64,000 nucleotides of DNA, from contig NC_047017.1 in assembly GCF_902652985.1 (NCBI RefSeq), positions 27,652,001 through 27,716,000 on the forward strand, written 5' to 3'. Origin of the DNA: Pecten maximus (lineage: Eukaryota). Below the pieces are notes generated by a model. It was not told the origin of the DNA and made no database searches. It worked only from the letters and a program-made list of their open reading frames with translations. Both the position numbers and the translations under genes were made by a program. Positions 22,553-52,448 of the stretch are shown one piece after another. Every line of letters starts with the position of its first letter. Positions within the stretch are counted from its first letter, which is position 1.

Positions 22553-23790
22553 AACTTTTTCTACAAATTATGTTAAATGAATGTGGATTTATATATAATT
22601 CGAATTCCCAGTAGACACTCTCATTTCACGGTTATTATACAATTTTTCTGAAACCTAGTTTCAGATGTGTACTTGCGTTTATTCTATGTGTGTACCTGTC
22701 TTAATGAGTTACAACCCCCCCCCCCCCCACCCACACACACACACACTTTTTTTCTTCTTTTTTCTTTTACATATAAAGTTTGTCCAGAGTAATAGTTCTC
22801 TCAATTATATCTAATTGCTTACGCCTAAACGATTACATGTATATCTAGAGACATATATATTGGGTTTGTTCTCTCGATACTTTTCAGTATAGGCTAAAAT
22901 GTCGCCGTCAAGCTTATAGAATTATGTAATGCATAGAATCCAAAAATAGTTAAGTTGTCATTTTATCATTTTCATGTAGGAACTCGACACGTTAGTCAGT
23001 GCAAACACAACAGATAAGCGCTGTGAATAGATAGGTCGCTACCTTCGGGTAAACATGACAAGGACAACAAAAAACACCTGATTTGACGTGGTATCTTTAT
23101 TTATGTACAAGTACACACAAGTTTGTTTACTCCGATACATTACCAAAACAATATGTCTCTGTAACGAAGTTCACACAAAGTTACCCAATATATTACTACA
23201 ACAAAAAATACTTTAACGAAAATATAGACGTCCCTGCGAAAACTGAGGTAAAATTGTTGCTGTTGGATGAATATTCTCTCCGAAATGCTATAAGTAGTCA
23301 GTCATTACCAATTCAAGGACACCATCTTCCCATGTACCTTGTATCAATGTATTTTGATCACAATCATTGTCATTACTATATCCATATATTTCACCAGTTT
23401 AATGAACAGAAGAATGTTTTTGAAAACCCTTTATCCACATGCACAAATAGAAGAAATTAACTTATTTAGGCTGTCAACACTTCACGCATGTGGACTAAAT
23501 GTGATGAGGCGAATATGAAAACAACAGTGTGATCGTCCAGTAGAAAACATGAGAATCCTTGGATTAGAAACAAGGCATCATATACTTAACAAAAAAAATC
23601 CATGAAATTCACAATAATGGAGATTGTCTAGATCTGTATTTTACTGTCCAAAATACAGCGCCTAACACAAGTATATTTACATCGGCCCAATAATTACCAG
23701 TATATATACACAACACTGTACAAATTAGTGTCTGATTTAGTCACCGAGTATCATAGCACATTCTGTGATATTAATTTGTGTAGTGTAGTA

Positions 23791-24175
23791 TCACAACCCC
23801 GTCAGCTGGGGTCGGGACGAAAAGGGCGTAGAGCAGGCTGGATAGAATGGCATGGGGTTGTAATGGTCGGCGAATACGCAACTAGGTGGCGCTTGGTTGG
23901 TACTCATCTGGTATGTAGTGGTGGAGGGGATCATCTGATGACCTTCACTCATCAGTTGGGAAAACATCATTGCGCGCGGTGACAGTGGCGATGATGCGGG
24001 TGGTGACTGGGGCGGCGAGTGTCCTCCTGGGGTGGGGTACTGGGAGTATGCATAGAACGCTGTTTCCGGTATAGCGGAACAGTGACTTCCGTTTGGCGAT
24101 GGCGGCTGAACATGGGCATGATGGACATCCACTTGTTGGTCAAATATGGCGTGTGGCGACGGTAGATAACTGAGA
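23791..24175 (-). CDS. Divergent PRD-class homeobox protein, last coding exon (Pro/Ser/Tyr-rich tail)
   Basis: TTTTTTTCAG acceptor; phase 2 joins in frame with ORF 23791..24132, ending ...PFSSRPQLTGL*; candidate AATAAA at ~23097-23102. Confidence 0.88.
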
Positions 24176-24339
24176 CTGAAAAAAAGACCAAATATAAATT
24201 TATAATCAGATTCTCGTTTTTGCGAATGGAAATGTAAATAAAAGCTTTCTGCGCAATAATTCCTTTGTCCTTAATTTCAAAAAAAGCAACACAGTAAGTT
24301 AACTGAAGGCCGGAAATAGCTGAGGTTGGCATGTAGGCT

Positions 24340-24745
24340 TTCTAAACCGAACTGACGAAAGTTGATATATAGACTGGAAATGACTCAAGTTGACATATAA
24401 TCCGGAACTCTTTTAAGTTGTTTATAGACCGGATATGACTCAAAATGACATAATATTCCGGTACTGATTAAAGTTGATATTTAAACCGGAAATGACTTCA
24501 GTTGATGTATATGCCGGAACTGATTTAAATAGACCGGGAGTGACTCATATTTACATACAAATCGCGACCGACAGGATAAGAGCTGACTAAGGAATGGTAA
24601 ATTTTACATATAATCGGGACCCACAGGATAAGAACTGACTCGATCTGGTATGGTGAAGTTTACTTGTAGACCGCGACCGACTGGATAGGAGCTGACTTAG
24701 GTATGGTAAATTTTACATAACAGACCGGGAAAGATAAAGCTGACC
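24340..24745. repeat. Degenerate ~29-40-bp tandem repeat
   Basis: Recurrent accggaactgac...aagttgatatatag units in homeobox intron 3. Confidence 0.65.
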
Positions 24746-24939
24746 TTCTGCTAAGTTTTGTTTGAAATGGAAATTATGAGGGAACTATAATATATATGAC
24801 CCTGAACTTTCAATAAACGAATATGCCTTTGAAGTAAAATTTGTCGACAGCAGAGAACTGAAAGTGACGTTTTAAATCAGTATTACAAGTAGTTTATGGT
24901 CATCTCTTCCCATCAAACATGAGTTTTAAAGTGATCATA

Positions 24940-25470
24940 TAAAATGATCAAAGGAGATTACTCTCTCGCCTAAACATAAAAATGATCAAAGGGAGATTAC
25001 TCTCTCCCATTAAAATAAAATGATCAAAGGGAGATAACTCTCTCGCCTAAACATAAAAATGATCAAAGAGAGATTGCTATCTCCCCTAAACATAAAAATG
25101 ATCAAAGGGAGATTACTCTCTCCAATAGAAATAAAATGATCAAAGGGATATAACTCTCTCGACTAACCATAAAAATGATCAAAGGGAGATTAATCTCTCG
25201 CCTAAACATTAAAATGATCAAAGGGAGATTACTCTCTCCAATTAAAATAAAATGATCAAAGGGAGATAACTCTCTCAAATTAACATAGAGCATTATCAAA
25301 GGGAGATTATTCTCTCCGCAAAACATAAAAATGATCGAAGATTATTATCTACGTCTAAATGAAAATGATCGAAGGGAGATTATTCTCTGCTCCAAATATA
25401 AAAATGATCGAAGAAAAATCAAATACTCTTACACCAAACATAAAAATGGTCAACGGGTGGTTACTCTCTG
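24940..25470. repeat. 38-39-bp minisatellite
   Basis: aaaatgatcaaagggagattactctctcgcctaaacat units. Confidence 0.9.
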
Positions 25471-25568
25471 AACTACAATATCTGAAAGACACAATCGGCA
25501 AGAACAGGAGACAGTATAACGTGCCCCTCTTATAATTTGACATTCGATGAACTAGTCTAAGTACTTAC

Positions 25569-25783
25569 TTGGAGGACGGTTGTCGGTGCCACGAGATATC
25601 TCGCCTCCGACTGGGTGAGTATGAAGGCGCCGACAGCACGTGGCGCTGGGAAACAAACTTGGGCTGGACGATACTACAGGAAGTGGAAGCTGTATCCTGG
25701 TTAAAGATCTGCTTCCTCATCCATGTCACGTGACTGTCCTTGGACTGACGCTTGAACTTGGAACGCCTGTTCTGGAACCATAT
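25569..25783 (-). CDS. Divergent PRD-class homeobox protein, coding exon 3 (recognition helix)
   Basis: 215 nt, begins IWFQNRRSKFKRQS (Q50); preceded by an intron at homeobox codon 46/47, typical of the PRD class; ends phase 2 at GTAAGT. Confidence 0.93.
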
Positions 25784-26106
25784 CTACAAATATGCCAAAT
25801 AAAAAATATTTATGCATGCTCCACATAAAACTAAAACCAATGATTGAATTGAAAAGGCCATCTTATACAAGATGACAATTTATTAAAGAAACATGAAAAA
25901 TATTATCATCAGAAATATTTTGAAAAGCTCATCATAAGATGGCTAATTCCGCATCAGTATTAGAACAAAATACAAATTGTATGACAATTTACATCCTTAG
26001 GTGTGTATTCGACAGAATTACGCCAAAAAGTATAGATAGAATGACACCGAAATAGAACAAAATACGAATTGAATGATAATTTACATCATGAGTAGATATT
26101 AGCATG

Positions 26107-28198
26107 CAGAGACATATATACAGAGAGATAAGTAACATCGCTATTTCCCCGTACACGTAGTGGCTCCCTTTATTCGTGACCACTCAAGCATATCCCTTAT
26201 CGAGAGCGTCATGTCTCCTATCAAACCAAGCGAGCGCAGGTAAATCGGGCTTTGCGCATGTGTGTATCGATGTATTGGAACTTATTCGACATGTTCTGGT
26301 TAAGCCGCCATTACGTCAGACCAAAACATCGTCATTTTAAATACACACAGAAAGCACATCGTTTTATTTTGGCCACTACAAAAGTTACCACATTAACCAA
26401 AAACTATCAAACTTATGGGATATAGTCTTATTGATCATGCACATTGTTGTCATTTATCCGTATTTTCGAAAATCCATTGGGTCCTATTCGACATGTCCAA
26501 GTTTATAATTAGCCGCCATTACGTCAGACCAAAACATCGTCAAATTTAAACGAACACAAAAAACACATCGTTTTATTTTGGCCACTACAAAAGTTACCAC
26601 ATTAACCAAAAACTATCATACTTATGGAATGTGGTCTTGATTATCATGCACATTGTTGTCATCTATCCGTATTCTCTATTTGCCCTTGTGTTTACATAGT
26701 GGCCCCTGACCTTCCCACAATCCTTTGCGGTCGCTCGGTTCAGTCTTCACTAGACGCCATATTGGAGAAAACTTGAAAACCAGACACATAATTATCGATA
26801 ATTTCTATTTGAAATCATCACCAAGATCCAATTATGTGCTTTAATTTTATTAATATCAAAGTGCAGAAGTGTCATCAATATGAAATATATCACAATTTGC
26901 TGTCCAAGTGTTTGTATTTTGAGTATGAAAGTCAAGCACAACGCAGGAAAGATCGGCGGGAATCTCCAATTTTCGAAAAGTCCCTATGGGGTTTTCGAGA
27001 ATACGGATAAATGACAACAATGTGCATGATAATCAAGACCACATTCCATAAGTATGATAGTTTTTGGTTAATGTGGTAACTTTTGTAGTGGCCTAGATAA
27101 AACAATGTGCTTTTTGTGTGCGTTTAAAATTGACGATGTTTTGGTCGGACGTAATGGCTGCTTAATTACAAAACTTGGACATGTCGAATAGGACCCAATG
27201 GATTTTAGAAAATACGGATAAATGGCAACAATGTGCATGATCAATAAGACTATATCCCATAAGTATGATAGTTTTTGGTTAATGTGGTAACTTTTGTAGT
27301 GGCCTAAATAAAACGATGTGCTTTTTGTGTGCGTTTAAAATTGACGATGTTTTGGTCTGACGTAATGGCGGCTTAATTACAAACTTGGACATGTCGAATA
27401 GGACCCAATGGATTTTAGAAAATACGGATAAATGACAACAATATGCATGAGCAATAAGACTATATCCCATAAGTTTGATAGTTTTTGGTTAATGTGGTAA
27501 CTTTTGTAGTGGCCAAAATAAAACGATGTGCTTTTTGTGTGCGTTTAAAATTGACGATGTTTTGGTCTGACGTAATGGCGGCTATTTACAAACTTGGACA
27601 TGTCGAATAGGACCTAATGGATTTTAGAAAAAACGGATAAATGGCAACAATGTGCATGATCAATAAGACTATATCCCATAAGTATGATAGTTTTTGGTTA
27701 ATGTGGTAACTTTTGTAGTGGCCTAAATAAAACGATGTGCTTTTTGTGTTCGTTTAAAATTGACGATGTTTTGGTCTGACGTAATGGCGGCTTAATTACA
27801 AACTTGGACATGTCGAATAGGACCCAATGGATTTTCGAAAATACGGATAAATGACAACAATATGCATGATCAATAAGACTATATCCCATAAGTTTGATAG
27901 TTTTTGGTTAATGTGGTAACTTTTGTAGTGGCCAAAATAAAACGATGTGCTTTCTGTGTGTATCTAAAATGACGATGTTTTGGTCTGACGTAATGGCGGA
28001 TTAACCAGAACATGTCGAATAAGTTCCAATACTACGATACACACATGCGCATAGCCCGATTTACCTGCGCTCGCGTGTGTTTGATAGGAGACAGGACGCT
28101 CTCGATAAGGGATATGCTTGAGTGGTCACGAATAAAGGGAGCCACTATGTGTACGGGGAAATAGCGATGTTACTAATCTCTCTGTTTATATGTCTCTG
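26107..28198. mobile_element. Foldback-type non-autonomous DNA element with long inverted arms made of ~210-bp tandem units
   Basis: Termini cagagacatatatacagagagat... and ...atctctctgtttatatgtctctg; left arm ~26107-26675 is the reverse complement of the right arm; ~300-bp central spacer; flanked by ATG on both sides. Confidence 0.9.
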
Positions 28199-28609
28199 AT
28201 GAACATAATCAAATTAATCACTGGCCACGTAGTGCTAAGAAATGTATATTAGTACATAGTAATAAAGATTAATTCTCCCGGAGTGAGAAAGCTACAGAAA
28301 TGCAAACACTCGGATCAATATTGAACTTTTTGTTTGCGGGCAATATTACGATGAAATCTCCTCCTGTATGTCGTGGTCTCTAAACCACAGAAGGAACGAA
28401 ACATATCCCTGTTTATCATAGATTTACATGGCACCAATTACTGTTCTTTTTGCATTCGACGTCCCATGTATACACGCATAATTGTAGGTCAAATATCAAC
28501 ATAATGACTGTATATCTAGAATTTCCAGTCTCCCTTCGGACATATCGGGATGATTTCAGTAAAACTTCATAAAATTTTCTTGATATGATAATGATAGAAA
28601 CAATGTAGC

Positions 28610-29615
28610 ACAAGTGGCCAATGGACAGTAACGGTCACCTCAGCTCTGAAAAGAAACCCCGAGAAAACCTTGTAATTTATTTCTTGAGTATTGCATTATT
28701 TGTTGATGAAATATACAGGCAATACAGTAGTACGATCAAGAGCATCTATCATATAGCATTGATTTTGAAAATAAAAAAGGATAAAAAAAGAAAGAAAAAA
28801 AGGGGGACCTCCGTAGGATTCGAACTCGCGTCGTGATAAAAATGTATTGAAAGACTAACCCATTAGCCCACTCGGGTATGGTAACCTTTTATAAAATAGG
28901 TGAATATTAGATATATAAAATTGTTACAGCCGTGACTCCCGACCGTGTATTATTGGCACGAGCGTGGGTTATTGGAAAATAATACATGGATTTAAACCAA
29001 TCAAAACTGACGTTGCATAGCAAACATGGTAGAATTCGTTATAAACTATGGTTAAGTTTACCCTCTCCCAAGAGATAAACACGAGCCCGATGGTCATGAA
29101 ACTCTTTGTTAACCAACGTACAAGTTGTATCTGGCCCCGCCCATCAGCCCCGGGGTCCAATCAATGTAAATATGTGCATACTATCAAACTGACTTGTCAA
29201 AAGTTTTTGGATTAATTCAAACAGAAATTCAACAAACGATAAACATGAACATTATTTCCCTATATGTATTAAATATCATCTTCTCTAAAGGGGCAAACGT
29301 GAGACTACAGGGTCGTGGAATTCACAATTTTGGGAACCCAACTATTAGCCATTCCATTTGCTCTCCTGTGAAATGGATTTGATGCTACTTAAAAACTTTT
29401 TTGTGTGTCTTGAGAAGAAGTCTTAAGTCGATTTGTCCCGTTTTTACCCCGCCCCTCAAGCCCAAGGTTGTGGGGATCTTTGGCCATGGAAGTTTGGGAT
29501 GGGTTTTTTTTTGCGAAGTTCAAATGAAACTTGTTTTTGAGAAGAAGTTGAAAATTAAAATTGTTTACGGATGCAAGGGTGACAATTACGGACAAAAGGT
29601 GATTAGAATTTGACT
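28610..29615 (+). mobile_element. Non-autonomous DNA element related to the 6100-7640 family
   Basis: caagtggccaatggacagtaacggtcacct start; gagaagaagttgaaaa...tttacggatg...gacaaaaggtgattagaa end. Confidence 0.55.
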
Positions 29616-29816
29616 GCCCTGTTAGGGACATTCATACCTTACTTAAGACGGATACAGAAATACGTTTTCGAAATCCAAAGGTTCCGTATAGCACCCAAAC
29701 GTTGCATTATACGGCATATGATTCAAGATTCAATCATTTTTACCACAAAATTTGTTGTGTAAATTCTTAAAGATATTGCATTATGGGTAATAGTGTCCTG
29801 TCAACTTAAAGCTTAC

Positions 29817-29918
29817 CGACACACGGTCGAGGCTGACGTCTAGCACTAAAGCCAGGTCCTCCATAGTAGCCGTGTCCGGATAGTGGGAAACCCCGAACTC
29901 CCTCTCCAGGCGTTCCAG
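29817..29918 (-). CDS. Divergent PRD-class homeobox protein, coding exon 2 (homeodomain positions 13-46)
   Basis: 102 nt, phase 0/0, LERLEREFGVSHYPDTATMEDLALVLDVSLDRVS (L13, L16, F20, Y25-P26-D27, L34-A35); CAG acceptor and GTAAGC donor. Confidence 0.92.
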
Positions 29919-30025
29919 CTGTTGATAAAAACAATGGCCGTCAGTAACTACTGCGATGCAAGTTGTACCAACTAATCTTGTTGGCCCGGATGGAAGAAGA
30001 TAGCATTAAGTGAAATACTAGTGTA

Positions 30026-30860
30026 AAACGGCATTTTCTACCTCCCTACAGTGATATAAAACGACATTATCTACCTCCCTACAGTGATATAAAACGACAT
30101 TACCTACCTCCCTACAGCGATATAAAACGACATTATCTACCTCCCTACAGTGATATAAAACGACATTACCTACCTCTATACAGTGATATAAAACGACATT
30201 ATCTACCTCTATACAGTGATATAAAACGACATGATCTACCTCTATACAGTGATATAAAACGACATTATCTACCTCTCTACAGTGATATAAAACGACATTA
30301 TCTACCTCCCTCCAGTGATATAAAATGACATTATCTACCTACCTACAATGATATAAAACGACATTGTCTACCTCCCTACAGTGATATAACGACATTATCT
30401 ACCTCCCTACAATGATATAAAACGACATTATCTACCTCCCTACAGTGATATAAAACGACATTATCTACCTCCCTACAGTGATATAAAACGACATTATCTA
30501 CCTCCCTACAGTGATACAGCTGTATAACGACATTATCTACCTCCCTGCAGTGATATAAAACGACATTATCTACCTACCGACAATGATATAAAACGGCATT
30601 ATCTACCTCCCTGCAGTGATATAAAACGGCATTACCTACCTCCCTAGTCCCTACAGTGATATAAAACGACATTATCTACCTCTCTACAGTGATATAAAAC
30701 GATATTATCTACCTCCCTTCAGTGATATAAAACGACATTATCTACCTCCCTACAGTGATATAAAACGACATTATCTACCTCCCTACTTTGATATAAAACG
30801 ACATTATCTACCTCCCTTCAGTAATATTAAACGACATTATCTACCACACTACAGTGATAA
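30026..30860. repeat. 33-bp minisatellite (~25 copies)
   Basis: Unit tgatataaaacgacattatctacctccctacag in homeobox intron 1. Confidence 0.97.
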
Positions 30861-31053
30861 CGTCGGTATCTATGTTACTATTTTATGTTTTGACCTTTTT
30901 CTTGCGCAGATTTAGATTTTTTTTATGTAATTTCTCCTTATAATTAGTTTCCACTGCTATCAATAATATGACGTCCACCTGTATATACTGTATACATATG
31001 ATAAGGTCTTGTCGCGTCATTCAGTTATATCCTACATGTTTTTCATGACTGAC

Positions 31054-31122
31054 CTGTTCCGGAGTATATTTGATGCGGTTCCTCTGTGAACACTTCCTGT
31101 CGGACGGAGCTCCCATGGTCAT
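31054..31122 (-). CDS. Divergent PRD-class homeobox protein, coding exon 1 (homeodomain positions 1-12)
   Basis: TTGTAG acceptor at 31125; ATG at 31122; MTMGAPSDRKCSQRNRIKYTPEQ; donor CAG|GTCAGT. An additional upstream coding exon cannot be excluded. Confidence 0.85.
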
Positions 31123-50900: not shown

Positions 50901-51323
50901 TCATGATCCAGCTTGCATCTCCTTCACATTTTTGTCTGAACAACTCTACACAGCTATATAGTTCAGAGGGTTATATTGCATGCCGGAGCCATTTTCCATG
51001 TGCATGATTGCCAGAAATACATCGTAACACATTATTCCAAGGTAAGACTATAAACTGCCACGCCCCCATTTTGACAGCTGACGGGAAAATCCACAATGTT
51101 GACGTTTGCAGTATAATTAGAATAATTATTGCGTCGATTGGACTTATATCATTACTTTCATATTTGCCTATGGAATAGTATGCTTATTGGATTTAAACCC
51201 CGTCGAAATAATATCTGAGACATGTATACTTGTTATATTTCTGAAAAAAAAATCTTTCCAAATAGTGCTCATTTGGGGAATGGTGATGTGAGAGTGACAT
51301 CAAGTCCGTCTTCAGATGACAGA

Positions 51324-51521
51324 ATGAGGGACCTTCCTCCTGAGCTACTGTTACAGATCTTCCAACACCTGAATGCAGTCGATCTGTGTAGTGTGGGGAC
51401 AGTGTGTAGTCACTGGAGTTACGTCAGCACATCAGACATTCTGTGGAGGAGGCTGTGTGATACTCTGGAGATGAAGTTGGATCTAGTGCGCAACGACCGA
51501 GCACTTGGATACTCCTGGAAG
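51324..51521 (+). CDS. FBXO48: F-box only protein 48, F-box exon (start codon uncertain; exon begins at 51266)
   Basis: MRDLPPELLLQIFQHLNAVDLCSVGTVCSHW...LWRRLC...GYSWK, an F-box followed by the FBXO48-like GYSW; donor AAG|GTAAGG. Confidence 0.88.
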
Positions 51522-52448
51522 GTAAGGATTTTCAAAGTCGGCAAACTTAAATAACATACACTGATCTGAGTGACAAGACAATATATACAGGTATGTATGA
51601 GGTATGTATAGCCGCAAACATTGTGTTCACAATGAAGAGTACAAAGTGTTTGTAGAACTATCAGATCGCAGAACTATCAGATCGCCTTACATACAAAGTT
51701 TACATCCGAAGACTGTTAAGGAAGAGTAATATAATCTAACATGGGTCTATTCTGTGGACAAGGATATATCTCAACTCATAAGACTTTGGTCAGTATGCAC
51801 GAGGCTTGTCGAGTGCTGGCCAGCAAAACTCTTACACGAATGATGATGTTGAGTTACTGTGAGCAGCATCATATAGCACATGCCAGCTGTCTTAACTAAC
51901 CTGTGTGAGATTGATGTATCTTTTCCCTAGCAACCGCCGGATATCCATGTGAAGTATATGTGAGAATATTTGATTCTACATCTTGGTATTGAGAAGATTT
52001 TGAAATTTCAGTCAGTTTGACCCATTTTGAATTTTTGACCCTACCCACCAGCTGTATAAAATCAAACTGCCGTCCCACTAACAATTCTGACCAAGTTTGA
52101 ACTATTTCCATTGACTGTTAAACAAAGGATGCTCAAAAATGTTACTATAGTAAAGTTGACCCCTTCCTTGGGGGAAACAGGAAACCCCAGGGTTATGGTG
52201 AGATTACAATTTTGGTAAAGCACCATAAGACCATTTCACCTATAAAGAGTATTAATTTAGATCTTACAAAATCTAGGTCTGGAGAAAAAGACTTCAGAGT
52301 TTTCAGTCAATTTGACCCCTTTTCGTCCTGCCCCTCAGGAACTTTTTTCTGCAAAATTTCAAATAGGTTTACAGGTTTTTCTTAAGAAATTATGTAGTAT
52401 ATGTTGAAGTTGCTATATTTATTTTAACAAACATCATTTGTCTTTTAG

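What the first reader, a model, noticed from the sequence alone, without database searches (positions are those of the whole stretch)
23791..31122. Hidden divergent PRD-class Q50 homeobox gene not assignable by eye to a named family
Seen: the spliced homeodomain is SQRNRIKYTPEQLERLEREFGVSHYPDTATMEDLALVLDVSLDRVSIWFQNRRSKFKRQS, with introns after homeodomain codons 12 and 46, only 11 residues upstream, and a Pro/Ser/Tyr-rich tail ending QLTGL. Established: P26-D27, Q50 and the 46/47 intron are PRD-class traits. Unusual: the normally conserved R31 is Met, helix 2 is acidic and hydrophobic (TATMEDLALVL), positions 6-8 are IKY, and no paired domain, octapeptide or OAR motif is visible. Inference: a lineage-specific (mollusc/spiralian) PRD gene like the novel clades known from bivalve genomes, possibly an early-embryo regulator. 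The post-homeodomain segment SHVTWMRKQIF may be a clade-diagnostic motif.
Basis: partly seen in the sequence, partly recalled or inferred. Interest (0 to 1): 0.72.

Follow-up and report, generated by a model that had tools for sequence, protein, structure and literature searches.

The report
Old homeobox family hidden in scallop
This is a real, spliced scallop gene-regulator of an already listed but poorly defined group (PRD Clade V), and a short signature behind its DNA-binding domain also occurs in priapulid and acorn worms, so the group is likely an ancient animal gene family and not a mollusc or spiralian invention.

Summary
The gene is real. Four exons with GT-AG introns give 256 aa, identical to an NCBI Pecten maximus model misnamed 'PROP1-like'. 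RNA contigs join all three introns at the predicted bases. It belongs to PRD Clade V of Paps 2015 (oyster PRD4/PRD5 group): two Lottia hits and one Capitella hit match the published Clade V homeodomains letter for letter. The odd residues are clade traits: 0 of 30 mollusc homologues keep R31 or E42. New here: the motif also occurs in annelids, a nemertean, Priapulus and two hemichordates, far above chance, and homeodomain-only trees group these genes (98/89 in one tree, 98/73 in another). So the clade is likely an old bilaterian family, not a spiralian novelty; a 2018 paper raised this from weaker evidence. Likely mechanism: a monomeric Q50 TAAT binder that cannot form the usual paired-like P3 dimer, whose recognition helix is predicted to run on into a cofactor-docking segment. 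Stage of expression and partner are untested.

The parts
31054..31122 (-). Coding exon 1: start codon, 11-residue leader, homeodomain residues 1-12
   Evidence: joint 29918/31054 in RNA contig of X1
29817..29918 (-). Exon 2: homeodomain residues 13-46 (P26, M31, L42, D43)
   Evidence: joints on both sides in X1
25569..25783 (-). Exon 3: homeodomain residues 47-60 (Q50, N51, S54), the HVTWMRKQIF helix extension and the HVLS motif
   Evidence: joints 25783/29817 and 24175/25569
25703..25741 (-). Family signature: 13 residues directly after the homeodomain, invariant W-M-R; predicted continuation of helix 3
   Evidence: 30 of 30 mollusc homologues; AlphaFold2 helix to residue 84, pLDDT 65-76 there
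23791..24175 (-). Exon 4 coding part: SNL(H/S)Y motif at its start, Pro/Ser-rich low-complexity tail, stop codon
   Evidence: low pLDDT
23088..23790 (-). 3' untranslated region (at least this far)
   Evidence: one 1114-nt contig of X1 covers 23088-24175 and joins exon 3
26107..28198 (.). Passenger in intron 2: foldback-like repeat with long inverted arms, about 210-nt internal units, ATG on both flanks; not part of the gene's function as far as shown

Best explanation
This is an intact, spliced PRD-class Q50 homeobox gene, the scallop member of PRD Clade V, which likely descends from an old bilaterian family and likely works as a monomeric TAAT-binding transcription factor whose predicted helix-3 extension would dock a cofactor. 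Shown: exon structure, splicing, grouping with published Clade V genes, the conserved W-M-R signature and two further short motifs, presence of the signature in Priapulus and hemichordate proteins. Inferred from established homeodomain rules: DNA binding through R5, I47, Q50, N51, R53; no cooperative P3 dimer because E42 is replaced and position 43 is acidic. Inferred, untested: the R31/E42 pair was swapped for a hydrophobic pair; the extension binds a partner protein; loss of the N-terminal eh1-like word in spiralians moved the protein from Groucho-type repression towards activation through the Pro/Ser-rich tail; a role in eggs or cleavage stages.
For: Gene and splicing. Thirty mollusc proteins score E<=5e-38 against the family profile, the next 3e-27. 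P0016, P0017 (Lottia) and P0196 (Capitella ELU00705) carry the homeodomains listed as PRD-V A2, A1 and Ct PRD-V B in PMC6118893 supplement and as Clade V in PMC5322547 Supp. Fig. 7 (compared by eye). Hand count against the printed Cgi_PRD4 homeodomain: 41 of 60 identical; best canonical scallop PRD homeodomain 50%. Homeodomain-only trees, motif left out: 82 rows, clade of molluscs, annelids, Lineus, rotifer-like proteins and Priapulus 99/82 starred, hemichordates as sister 98/73; 42 rows without long branches, the same with hemichordates 98/89 starred. A 13-column matrix trained on the 30 mollusc proteins scores the hemichordate segments 30-32 bits, Lineus 29.5, Priapulus 24, annelids 15-32; the best of the other 330 of 342 segments scores 4.4; expected by chance among the 27,252 profile hits about 1e-6 (hemichordates) and 1e-4 (Priapulus). 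Priapulus also has the second motif, found in 30 of 30 family members and 0 of 172 other homeodomain proteins. E42 is a critical rule for P3 cooperativity, and A43D/A43E variants reduce it (PMC13530268 passages and Table 1); 0 of 30 have E42, 30 of 30 have D/E43, 30 of 30 have Q50 and N51. Fold matches ALX4, CRX, PRRX, Aristaless.
Against: Sixty columns are weak: bootstraps had not settled, and AU tests on a quick tree rejected nothing, not the hemichordates outside the clade (p 0.53), not a spiralian-only clade (p 0.77), not even the window gene with Prop (p 0.14). The non-mollusc genes were retrieved with a profile that held the motif, so their selection was not blind (the chance estimate corrects for the number of hits only). 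Hemichordates lack the second and third motifs, keep R31 and E42, and are 47-48% identical in the homeodomain, no more than canonical families. Priapulus has L for the W. Rotifer-like members group by homeodomain but lack the motif. No echinoderm, amphioxus, cephalopod or brachiopod member was identified, which needs many losses or reflects limited searches (150 of 27,252 hits listed; 46 candidates). The extension is only moderately confident and weakly amphipathic (moment 0.24-0.28). Stage and tissue of the RNA runs are not known; the one scallop gene found may stand for both oyster PRD4 (early) and PRD5 (late).
Confidence: 0.62

Rival explanations
1. Clade V is a protostome or spiralian family as published; the hemichordate genes are a separate lineage that only resembles it.
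For: Hemichordate sister position not starred (98/73); AU test cannot reject their exclusion; they lack motifs 2 and 3; no echinoderm or chordate member found.
Against: 13-residue match in exact register at 30-32 bits in two hemichordate families; starred grouping; Priapulus alone already breaks 'spiralian only'.
Confidence: 0.2
2. The helix extension is structural or DNA-contacting (it lengthens and stiffens helix 3, or adds backbone contacts that make up for the lost R31), not a cofactor dock.
For: AlphaFold2 draws one unbroken helix; the segment carries R and K; low hydrophobic moment; R31 lost in 30 of 30.
Against: The invariant residues are W and M, 7-8 residues past the homeodomain end and predicted to be exposed; hemichordates keep both R31 and the motif; C-terminal extensions serve as partner interfaces in Ubx (UbdA) and MATalpha2 (PMC4901127 passages).
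Confidence: 0.25
3. W-M-R/K is a displaced hexapeptide-like word that binds the pocket of TALE homeodomains (Pbx or the spiralian TALE genes co-expressed with PRD4 in early oyster embryos).
For: Likeness to the YPWM core; oyster PRD4 and most novel TALE genes share the egg-to-blastula window.
Against: Hexapeptides lie upstream of the homeodomain; here the word is downstream and predicted helical; several annelid and Priapulus copies replace the W. This is one special case of the cofactor-dock reading.
Confidence: 0.15
4. The family arose by duplication of Drgx.
For: Scallop Drgx has the same phase-0 intron between codons 12 and 13; it is the only one of the other scallop PRD-type loci examined seen to have it.
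Against: 47% identity, no grouping; Phox, Otx and Rax fit as sister just as well; genes with this intron are under-detected by the exon-wise search, so its rarity is not established.
Confidence: 0.2

Closest known systems
PRD Clade V (Paps et al. 2015, PMC5322547; Barton-Owen et al. 2018, PMC6118893): Cgi_PRD4, Cgi_PRD5, Lottia PRD-V A1/A2/B, Capitella PRD-V A/B
   Same: Same clade: groups with the Lottia and Capitella members, 41 of 60 identical to Cgi_PRD4, same helix-3 end, same loss of R31 and E42.
   Different: The papers define it by homeodomain trees only, without monophyletic support in 2015 and with a long-branch warning in 2018; in the text I read they name no motif for it and sample no priapulid or hemichordate PRD genes. 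One copy found in scallop against tandem copies in limpets and oysters.
Canonical Q50 paired-like factors (ALX4, PRRX, PHOX2, Aristaless)
   Same: Fold (rmsd about 1 A over the domain), P26, Q50, N51, 46/47 intron.
   Different: No E42, acidic 43, so predicted not to form P3 dimers; no OAR; S54 instead of A54; long predicted helix-3 extension.
Lopx (Barton-Owen 2018)
   Same: A divergent lophotrochozoan homeobox family recognised by a motif outside the homeodomain and often mislabelled 'ceh-37'.
   Different: Different gene: scallop Lopx lies elsewhere on the same contig (L076) and is 33% identical.
Ubx/AbdA UbdA motif (works-like comparison)
   Same: Short conserved segment continuing from helix 3 that can offer a cofactor interface.
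   Different: ANTP class, unrelated sequence; binding is shown for UbdA, only inferred here.
Mammalian fast-evolving PRD genes of early embryos (DUX, DPRX, LEUTX, NOBOX)
   Same: Divergent PRD homeodomains; top sequence hits in the PDB are DUX4 and Atlas look-alikes are DPRX and NOBOX clusters at 0.82-0.86, leads only.
   Different: DUXA does not group with the family; NOBOX, DPRX and LEUTX were not in my trees.

Membership tests
PRD class, paired-like (Q50) | Homeodomain with P26 and PRD-type sequence | tested here: met
   PRD side of the tree against ANTP outgroup 100/94
PRD class, paired-like (Q50) | Intron between homeodomain codons 46 and 47 | tested here: met
   trait per PMC2211742 passages
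PRD class, paired-like (Q50) | E42, needed for cooperative P3 dimers in many members | tested here: not met
   L42, D43; 0 of 30 homologues have E42; rule. Not a class-defining trait
PRD Clade V | Groups with the named Clade V homeodomains in a tree | tested here: met
   with Lottia A1/A2/B1 and Capitella B, 99/82, 98/94
PRD Clade V | No paired or other large companion domain | tested here: met
PRD Clade V | One-to-one orthology to oyster PRD4 rather than PRD5 | tested here: inconclusive
   65% to Ostrea PRD4-type, 53% to PRD5-type (labels by eye); unresolved fork
PRD Clade V | Egg-to-blastula expression as oyster PRD4 | not testable with these tools
   runs are coded contigs without stage
PRD Clade V | Restricted to Lophotrochozoa (as first published) | tested here: not met
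   Priapulus and hemichordate relatives
PRD Clade V | Conserved synteny with other members | not testable with these tools
   no other animal genome available to the tools
Prop (NCBI label) | High homeodomain identity and grouping with Prop | tested here: not met
   39% to scallop Prop L055, a separate locus; the AU test alone did not reject the pairing (p 0.14)
Lopx | Lopx homeodomain | tested here: not met
   33% to scallop Lopx L076
Drgx | Intron at homeodomain 12/13 | tested here: met
Drgx | Homeodomain groups with Drgx | tested here: not met
   47% identity; apart
Pax (paired domain, S50) | Paired domain and S50 | tested here: not met
Nobox | Groups with vertebrate NOBOX | not tested
   no NOBOX sequence came back from any call; resemblance is recalled, plus an Atlas lead at 0.82

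The most novel reading that the evidence does not exclude
PRD Clade V is an unnamed homeobox family of the last common bilaterian ancestor, recognisable by a W-M-R helix extension. It kept an eh1 repressor word in hemichordates and Priapulus, lost it and the R31/E42 pair in protostome or spiralian lines, expanded in tandem in molluscs, and was lost from the model animals (vertebrates, insects, nematodes). One of the 'new' genes behind the oyster egg-timer argument would then be old.
Probability: 0.65. Interest if true: 0.6.

Novelty: new member of a known kind. Interest (0 to 1): 0.45.

Why it matters
The gene itself is an expected orthologue. The value lies in the family: Clade V had no statistical support and no named marker, and databases label its members as Pax6, Otx, Dlx, Rx or Prop. 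The signature gives a simple diagnostic and turns the clade into a testable gene family. If the priapulid and hemichordate genes are true members, the bilaterian ancestor had one more homeobox family than model animals show, and a gene counted as a lophotrochozoan novelty recruited to early development must be re-dated. It also offers a natural paired-like protein that gave up P3 dimer binding and gained a conserved helix extension.

Tried and rejected
Lopx was my first guess; rejected. AU tests for the parent family were uninformative: the quick free search was beaten by several constrained trees and nothing was rejected. Homodimer prediction for residues 9-90 gave 'no answer' (score 0.00, controls not folded); it says nothing either way. 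No TALE complex was modelled. Protein Atlas gave only generic homeodomain clusters under 0.9. The search with the Saccoglossus domain returned, besides the two hemichordate proteins, only Prrx- and Isx-type proteins without the motif (26 of 28 hits). Paralogue searches in the scallop genome found only this locus (best candidates only, so a lower bound). Ten listed runs with share 0.00 and the small-share run X13 are no evidence of absence. Only 4 of 24 runs were laid, so splicing rests on X1 and X5. The weak motif scores of Vent-like proteins (3-4 bits) are chance level. Recalled DPP3 words found nothing in the window; the Pfam search placed the gene's matches just outside it. No earlier scan finding matched. 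The hemichordate genome paper's held supplements gave no hit for the Saccoglossus gene; its homeobox table may not be among them.
Full report
Observation. Exons 31122-31054, 29918-29817, 25783-25569 and 24175-23791 have GT-AG borders and give one open frame of 256 codons, with introns after homeodomain codons 12 and 46 and a third in the tail. The product equals P0001, NCBI XP_033735101.1, 'homeobox protein prophet of Pit-1-like' of Pecten maximus. Of 24 listed runs, 14 hold part of the last exon, in 7 studies. Of 4 runs laid, X1 (on record as RNA) joins all three introns at the predicted bases, X5 joins the third, X3 and X4 join none. Contigs give no stage, tissue or level.

What it is. A search with exon 3 returned 21 proteins, all molluscan; the profile search gave 30 mollusc proteins at E<=5e-38 and then a drop to 3e-27. 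Their database names are scattered (Pax6, Rx, Otx, Dlx, Prop, ceh-37). Two Lottia hits and a Capitella hit carry, by eye letter for letter, the homeodomains listed as PRD Clade V in the supplements of PMC6118893 and PMC5322547. The scallop domain shares 41 of 60 residues with the printed Cgi_PRD4 (hand count) and at most 50% with canonical scallop PRD genes. The true scallop Prop, Lopx, Drgx and PRD Clades I-IV and VI are other loci (named by eye). Only this locus answered paralogue searches. Paps 2015 lists Clade V as lophotrochozoan, 'without monophyletic support', with PRD4 expressed from egg to blastula and PRD5 after the trochophore.

The odd residues are clade traits. Among the 30 mollusc proteins none has R31 or E42, all have D or E at 43, all have P26, Q50, N51 and K55, 29 have S54, and 29 have K7-Y8 (one is truncated there). 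W-M-R stands 7-9 residues after the domain in 30 of 30; H-(V/L)-L-(S/T) follows in 30 of 30 and in 0 of 172 other homeodomain proteins; a third word of SNLHY type is in 26 of 30 by a loose pattern. The QLTGL end is scallop-specific.

Range of the family. An HMMER search of 1.84 billion representatives (27,252 hits at E<=0.001, best 150 listed) brought in oyster PRD5-type and limpet PRD-V B proteins, annelids (Capitella, Lamellibrachia, Dimorphilus), the nemertean Lineus, Priapulus caudatus, Saccoglossus kowalevskii and Ptychodera flava (names; 19 of the new hits looked up, some remain unnamed). A matrix of the 13 post-domain columns, trained on molluscs only, scored 12 of 342 other segments at 15-35 bits (all from these animals or unnamed annelid-like hits) and the rest at most 4.4; chance expectation over 27,252 hits is about 1e-6 for the hemichordates and 1e-4 for Priapulus. 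Trees on the 60 homeodomain columns alone agree: 82 rows put Priapulus in a starred clade with the spiralian genes (99/82) and the hemichordates next to it (98/73); 42 rows, leaving out the flagged long branches and redundant rows, star the whole group (98/89; it includes one unnamed rotifer-like row without the motif). Against this, bootstraps had not settled and AU tests on a quick tree rejected no alternative. The Priapulus and hemichordate proteins have a long N-terminus with an eh1-like word, and the hemichordates keep R31 and E42; the spiralian members checked start within about 30 residues of the domain (Adineta excepted) and lack the word. PMC6118893 already raised a bilaterian origin for Clades I, IV, V and VI from amphioxus Aprd genes, with a long-branch warning. 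I found no paper that names the motif or the priapulid and hemichordate members (searches; supplement searches; the library lacks most subscription journals, and one Paps supplement file was not searchable).

How it likely works. AlphaFold2 with 31 sequences gives a confident three-helix domain, helix 3 running unbroken to residue 84 (pLDDT 76 then 65 over the extension) and a disordered tail; Foldseek matches ALX4, CRX, PRRX and Aristaless. R5, I47, Q50, N51 and R53 predict binding to TAAT-core sites (established knowledge, not tested). By the rules of PMC13530268, E42 is critical for P3 dimers and acidic residues at 43 reduce them, so the protein would bind as a monomer or with another partner. 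That R31 and E42 form a salt bridge is recalled; their joint replacement by mostly hydrophobic residues looks compensatory. An invariant W-M on a helix beyond the DNA-binding surface most simply marks a partner interface, as UbdA does in Ubx; a structural or DNA-contact role and TALE binding are the rivals. Loss of eh1 plus a Pro/Ser-rich tail suggests activation. I put about 0.8 on monomeric TAAT binding, 0.55 on a cofactor dock and 0.45 on an early-embryo role in scallop.

Origin. Scallop Drgx shares the 12/13 intron, but sequence and trees do not single it out. Predicted proteins of Lineus, Mytilus and the published Patella row break off at position 12/13, which hints that the intron is old in the clade (inference). 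NOBOX was not tested.

Papers seen. PMC6118893: passages, section 12, supplement parts 19, 24, 25 and term searches. PMC5322547: passages, section 12, hits in supplement file 2; its expression figure not seen. PMC13530268: abstract, outline, passages with Table 1. PMC2211742, PMC4901127, PMC4729200: passages only, plus an empty supplement search for the last.

Verdict. Real gene, new member of a known but ill-defined clade; interest 0.45, carried by the diagnostic motif and the likely bilaterian age of the family (probability 0.65).

Noticed in passing
L056 (G000:C10:20.43 Mb) against P0266-P0287: Scallop PRD Clade IV gene has the same nine residues after the homeodomain (KLGNFGGLQ) as amphibian ISX and groups with it (94/96), so PRD Clade IV is likely the Isx family, listed as a vertebrate orphan in PMC2211742.
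   Followed up: partly
L074 (G000:C1:44035222-44036105): Scallop Drgx has a phase-0 intron between homeodomain codons 12 and 13, as the window gene does.
   Followed up: partly
window 26107-28198: Foldback-like element in intron 2: inverted arms 91-97% alike, about 210-nt tandem units, ATG on both flanks as a possible 3-bp target duplication; high contig depth shows many copies elsewhere.
   Followed up: partly
window about 28650-29035: Second high-copy repeat in intron 2 with a tRNA-like stretch by eye, possibly a SINE; ARAGORN calls no tRNA there.
   Followed up: no
window 47815, 51219-51554, 4483-4554; G000:C3:27641685-27650006: Neighbours: a PIGF-like exon (recalled motif), an F-box exon, a tRNA-Asp; DPP3 (Peptidase_M49) exons lie just beyond the window's start.
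   Followed up: partly
window 25688: One X1 contig has an in-frame 3-nt insertion in exon 3, likely an allele.
   Followed up: no
L075 (G000:C7:977339-977476): Another divergent PRD-like homeobox exon in the scallop that I could not assign; long branch.
   Followed up: no
P0005, P0011, P0183, P0257-P0259; P0016, P0017; P0012, P0129, P0169: Close locus tags or equal contig lengths point to tandem clusters of Clade V genes in Patella, Lottia and Ostrea, against one copy found in scallop.
   Followed up: no
PMC6118893 supplement, PRD alignment: The row labelled Sl_PRD-V_A is identical to Pv_PRD-V_B and its first 11 residues look like intron read-through; probably a mislabelled Patella sequence.
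   Followed up: no
P0198, P0200, P0204, P0218, P0238, P0033, P0209: Rotifer and unnamed rotifer-like proteins group with the family by homeodomain (100/93 among themselves) but have lost the W-M-R extension.
   Followed up: partly
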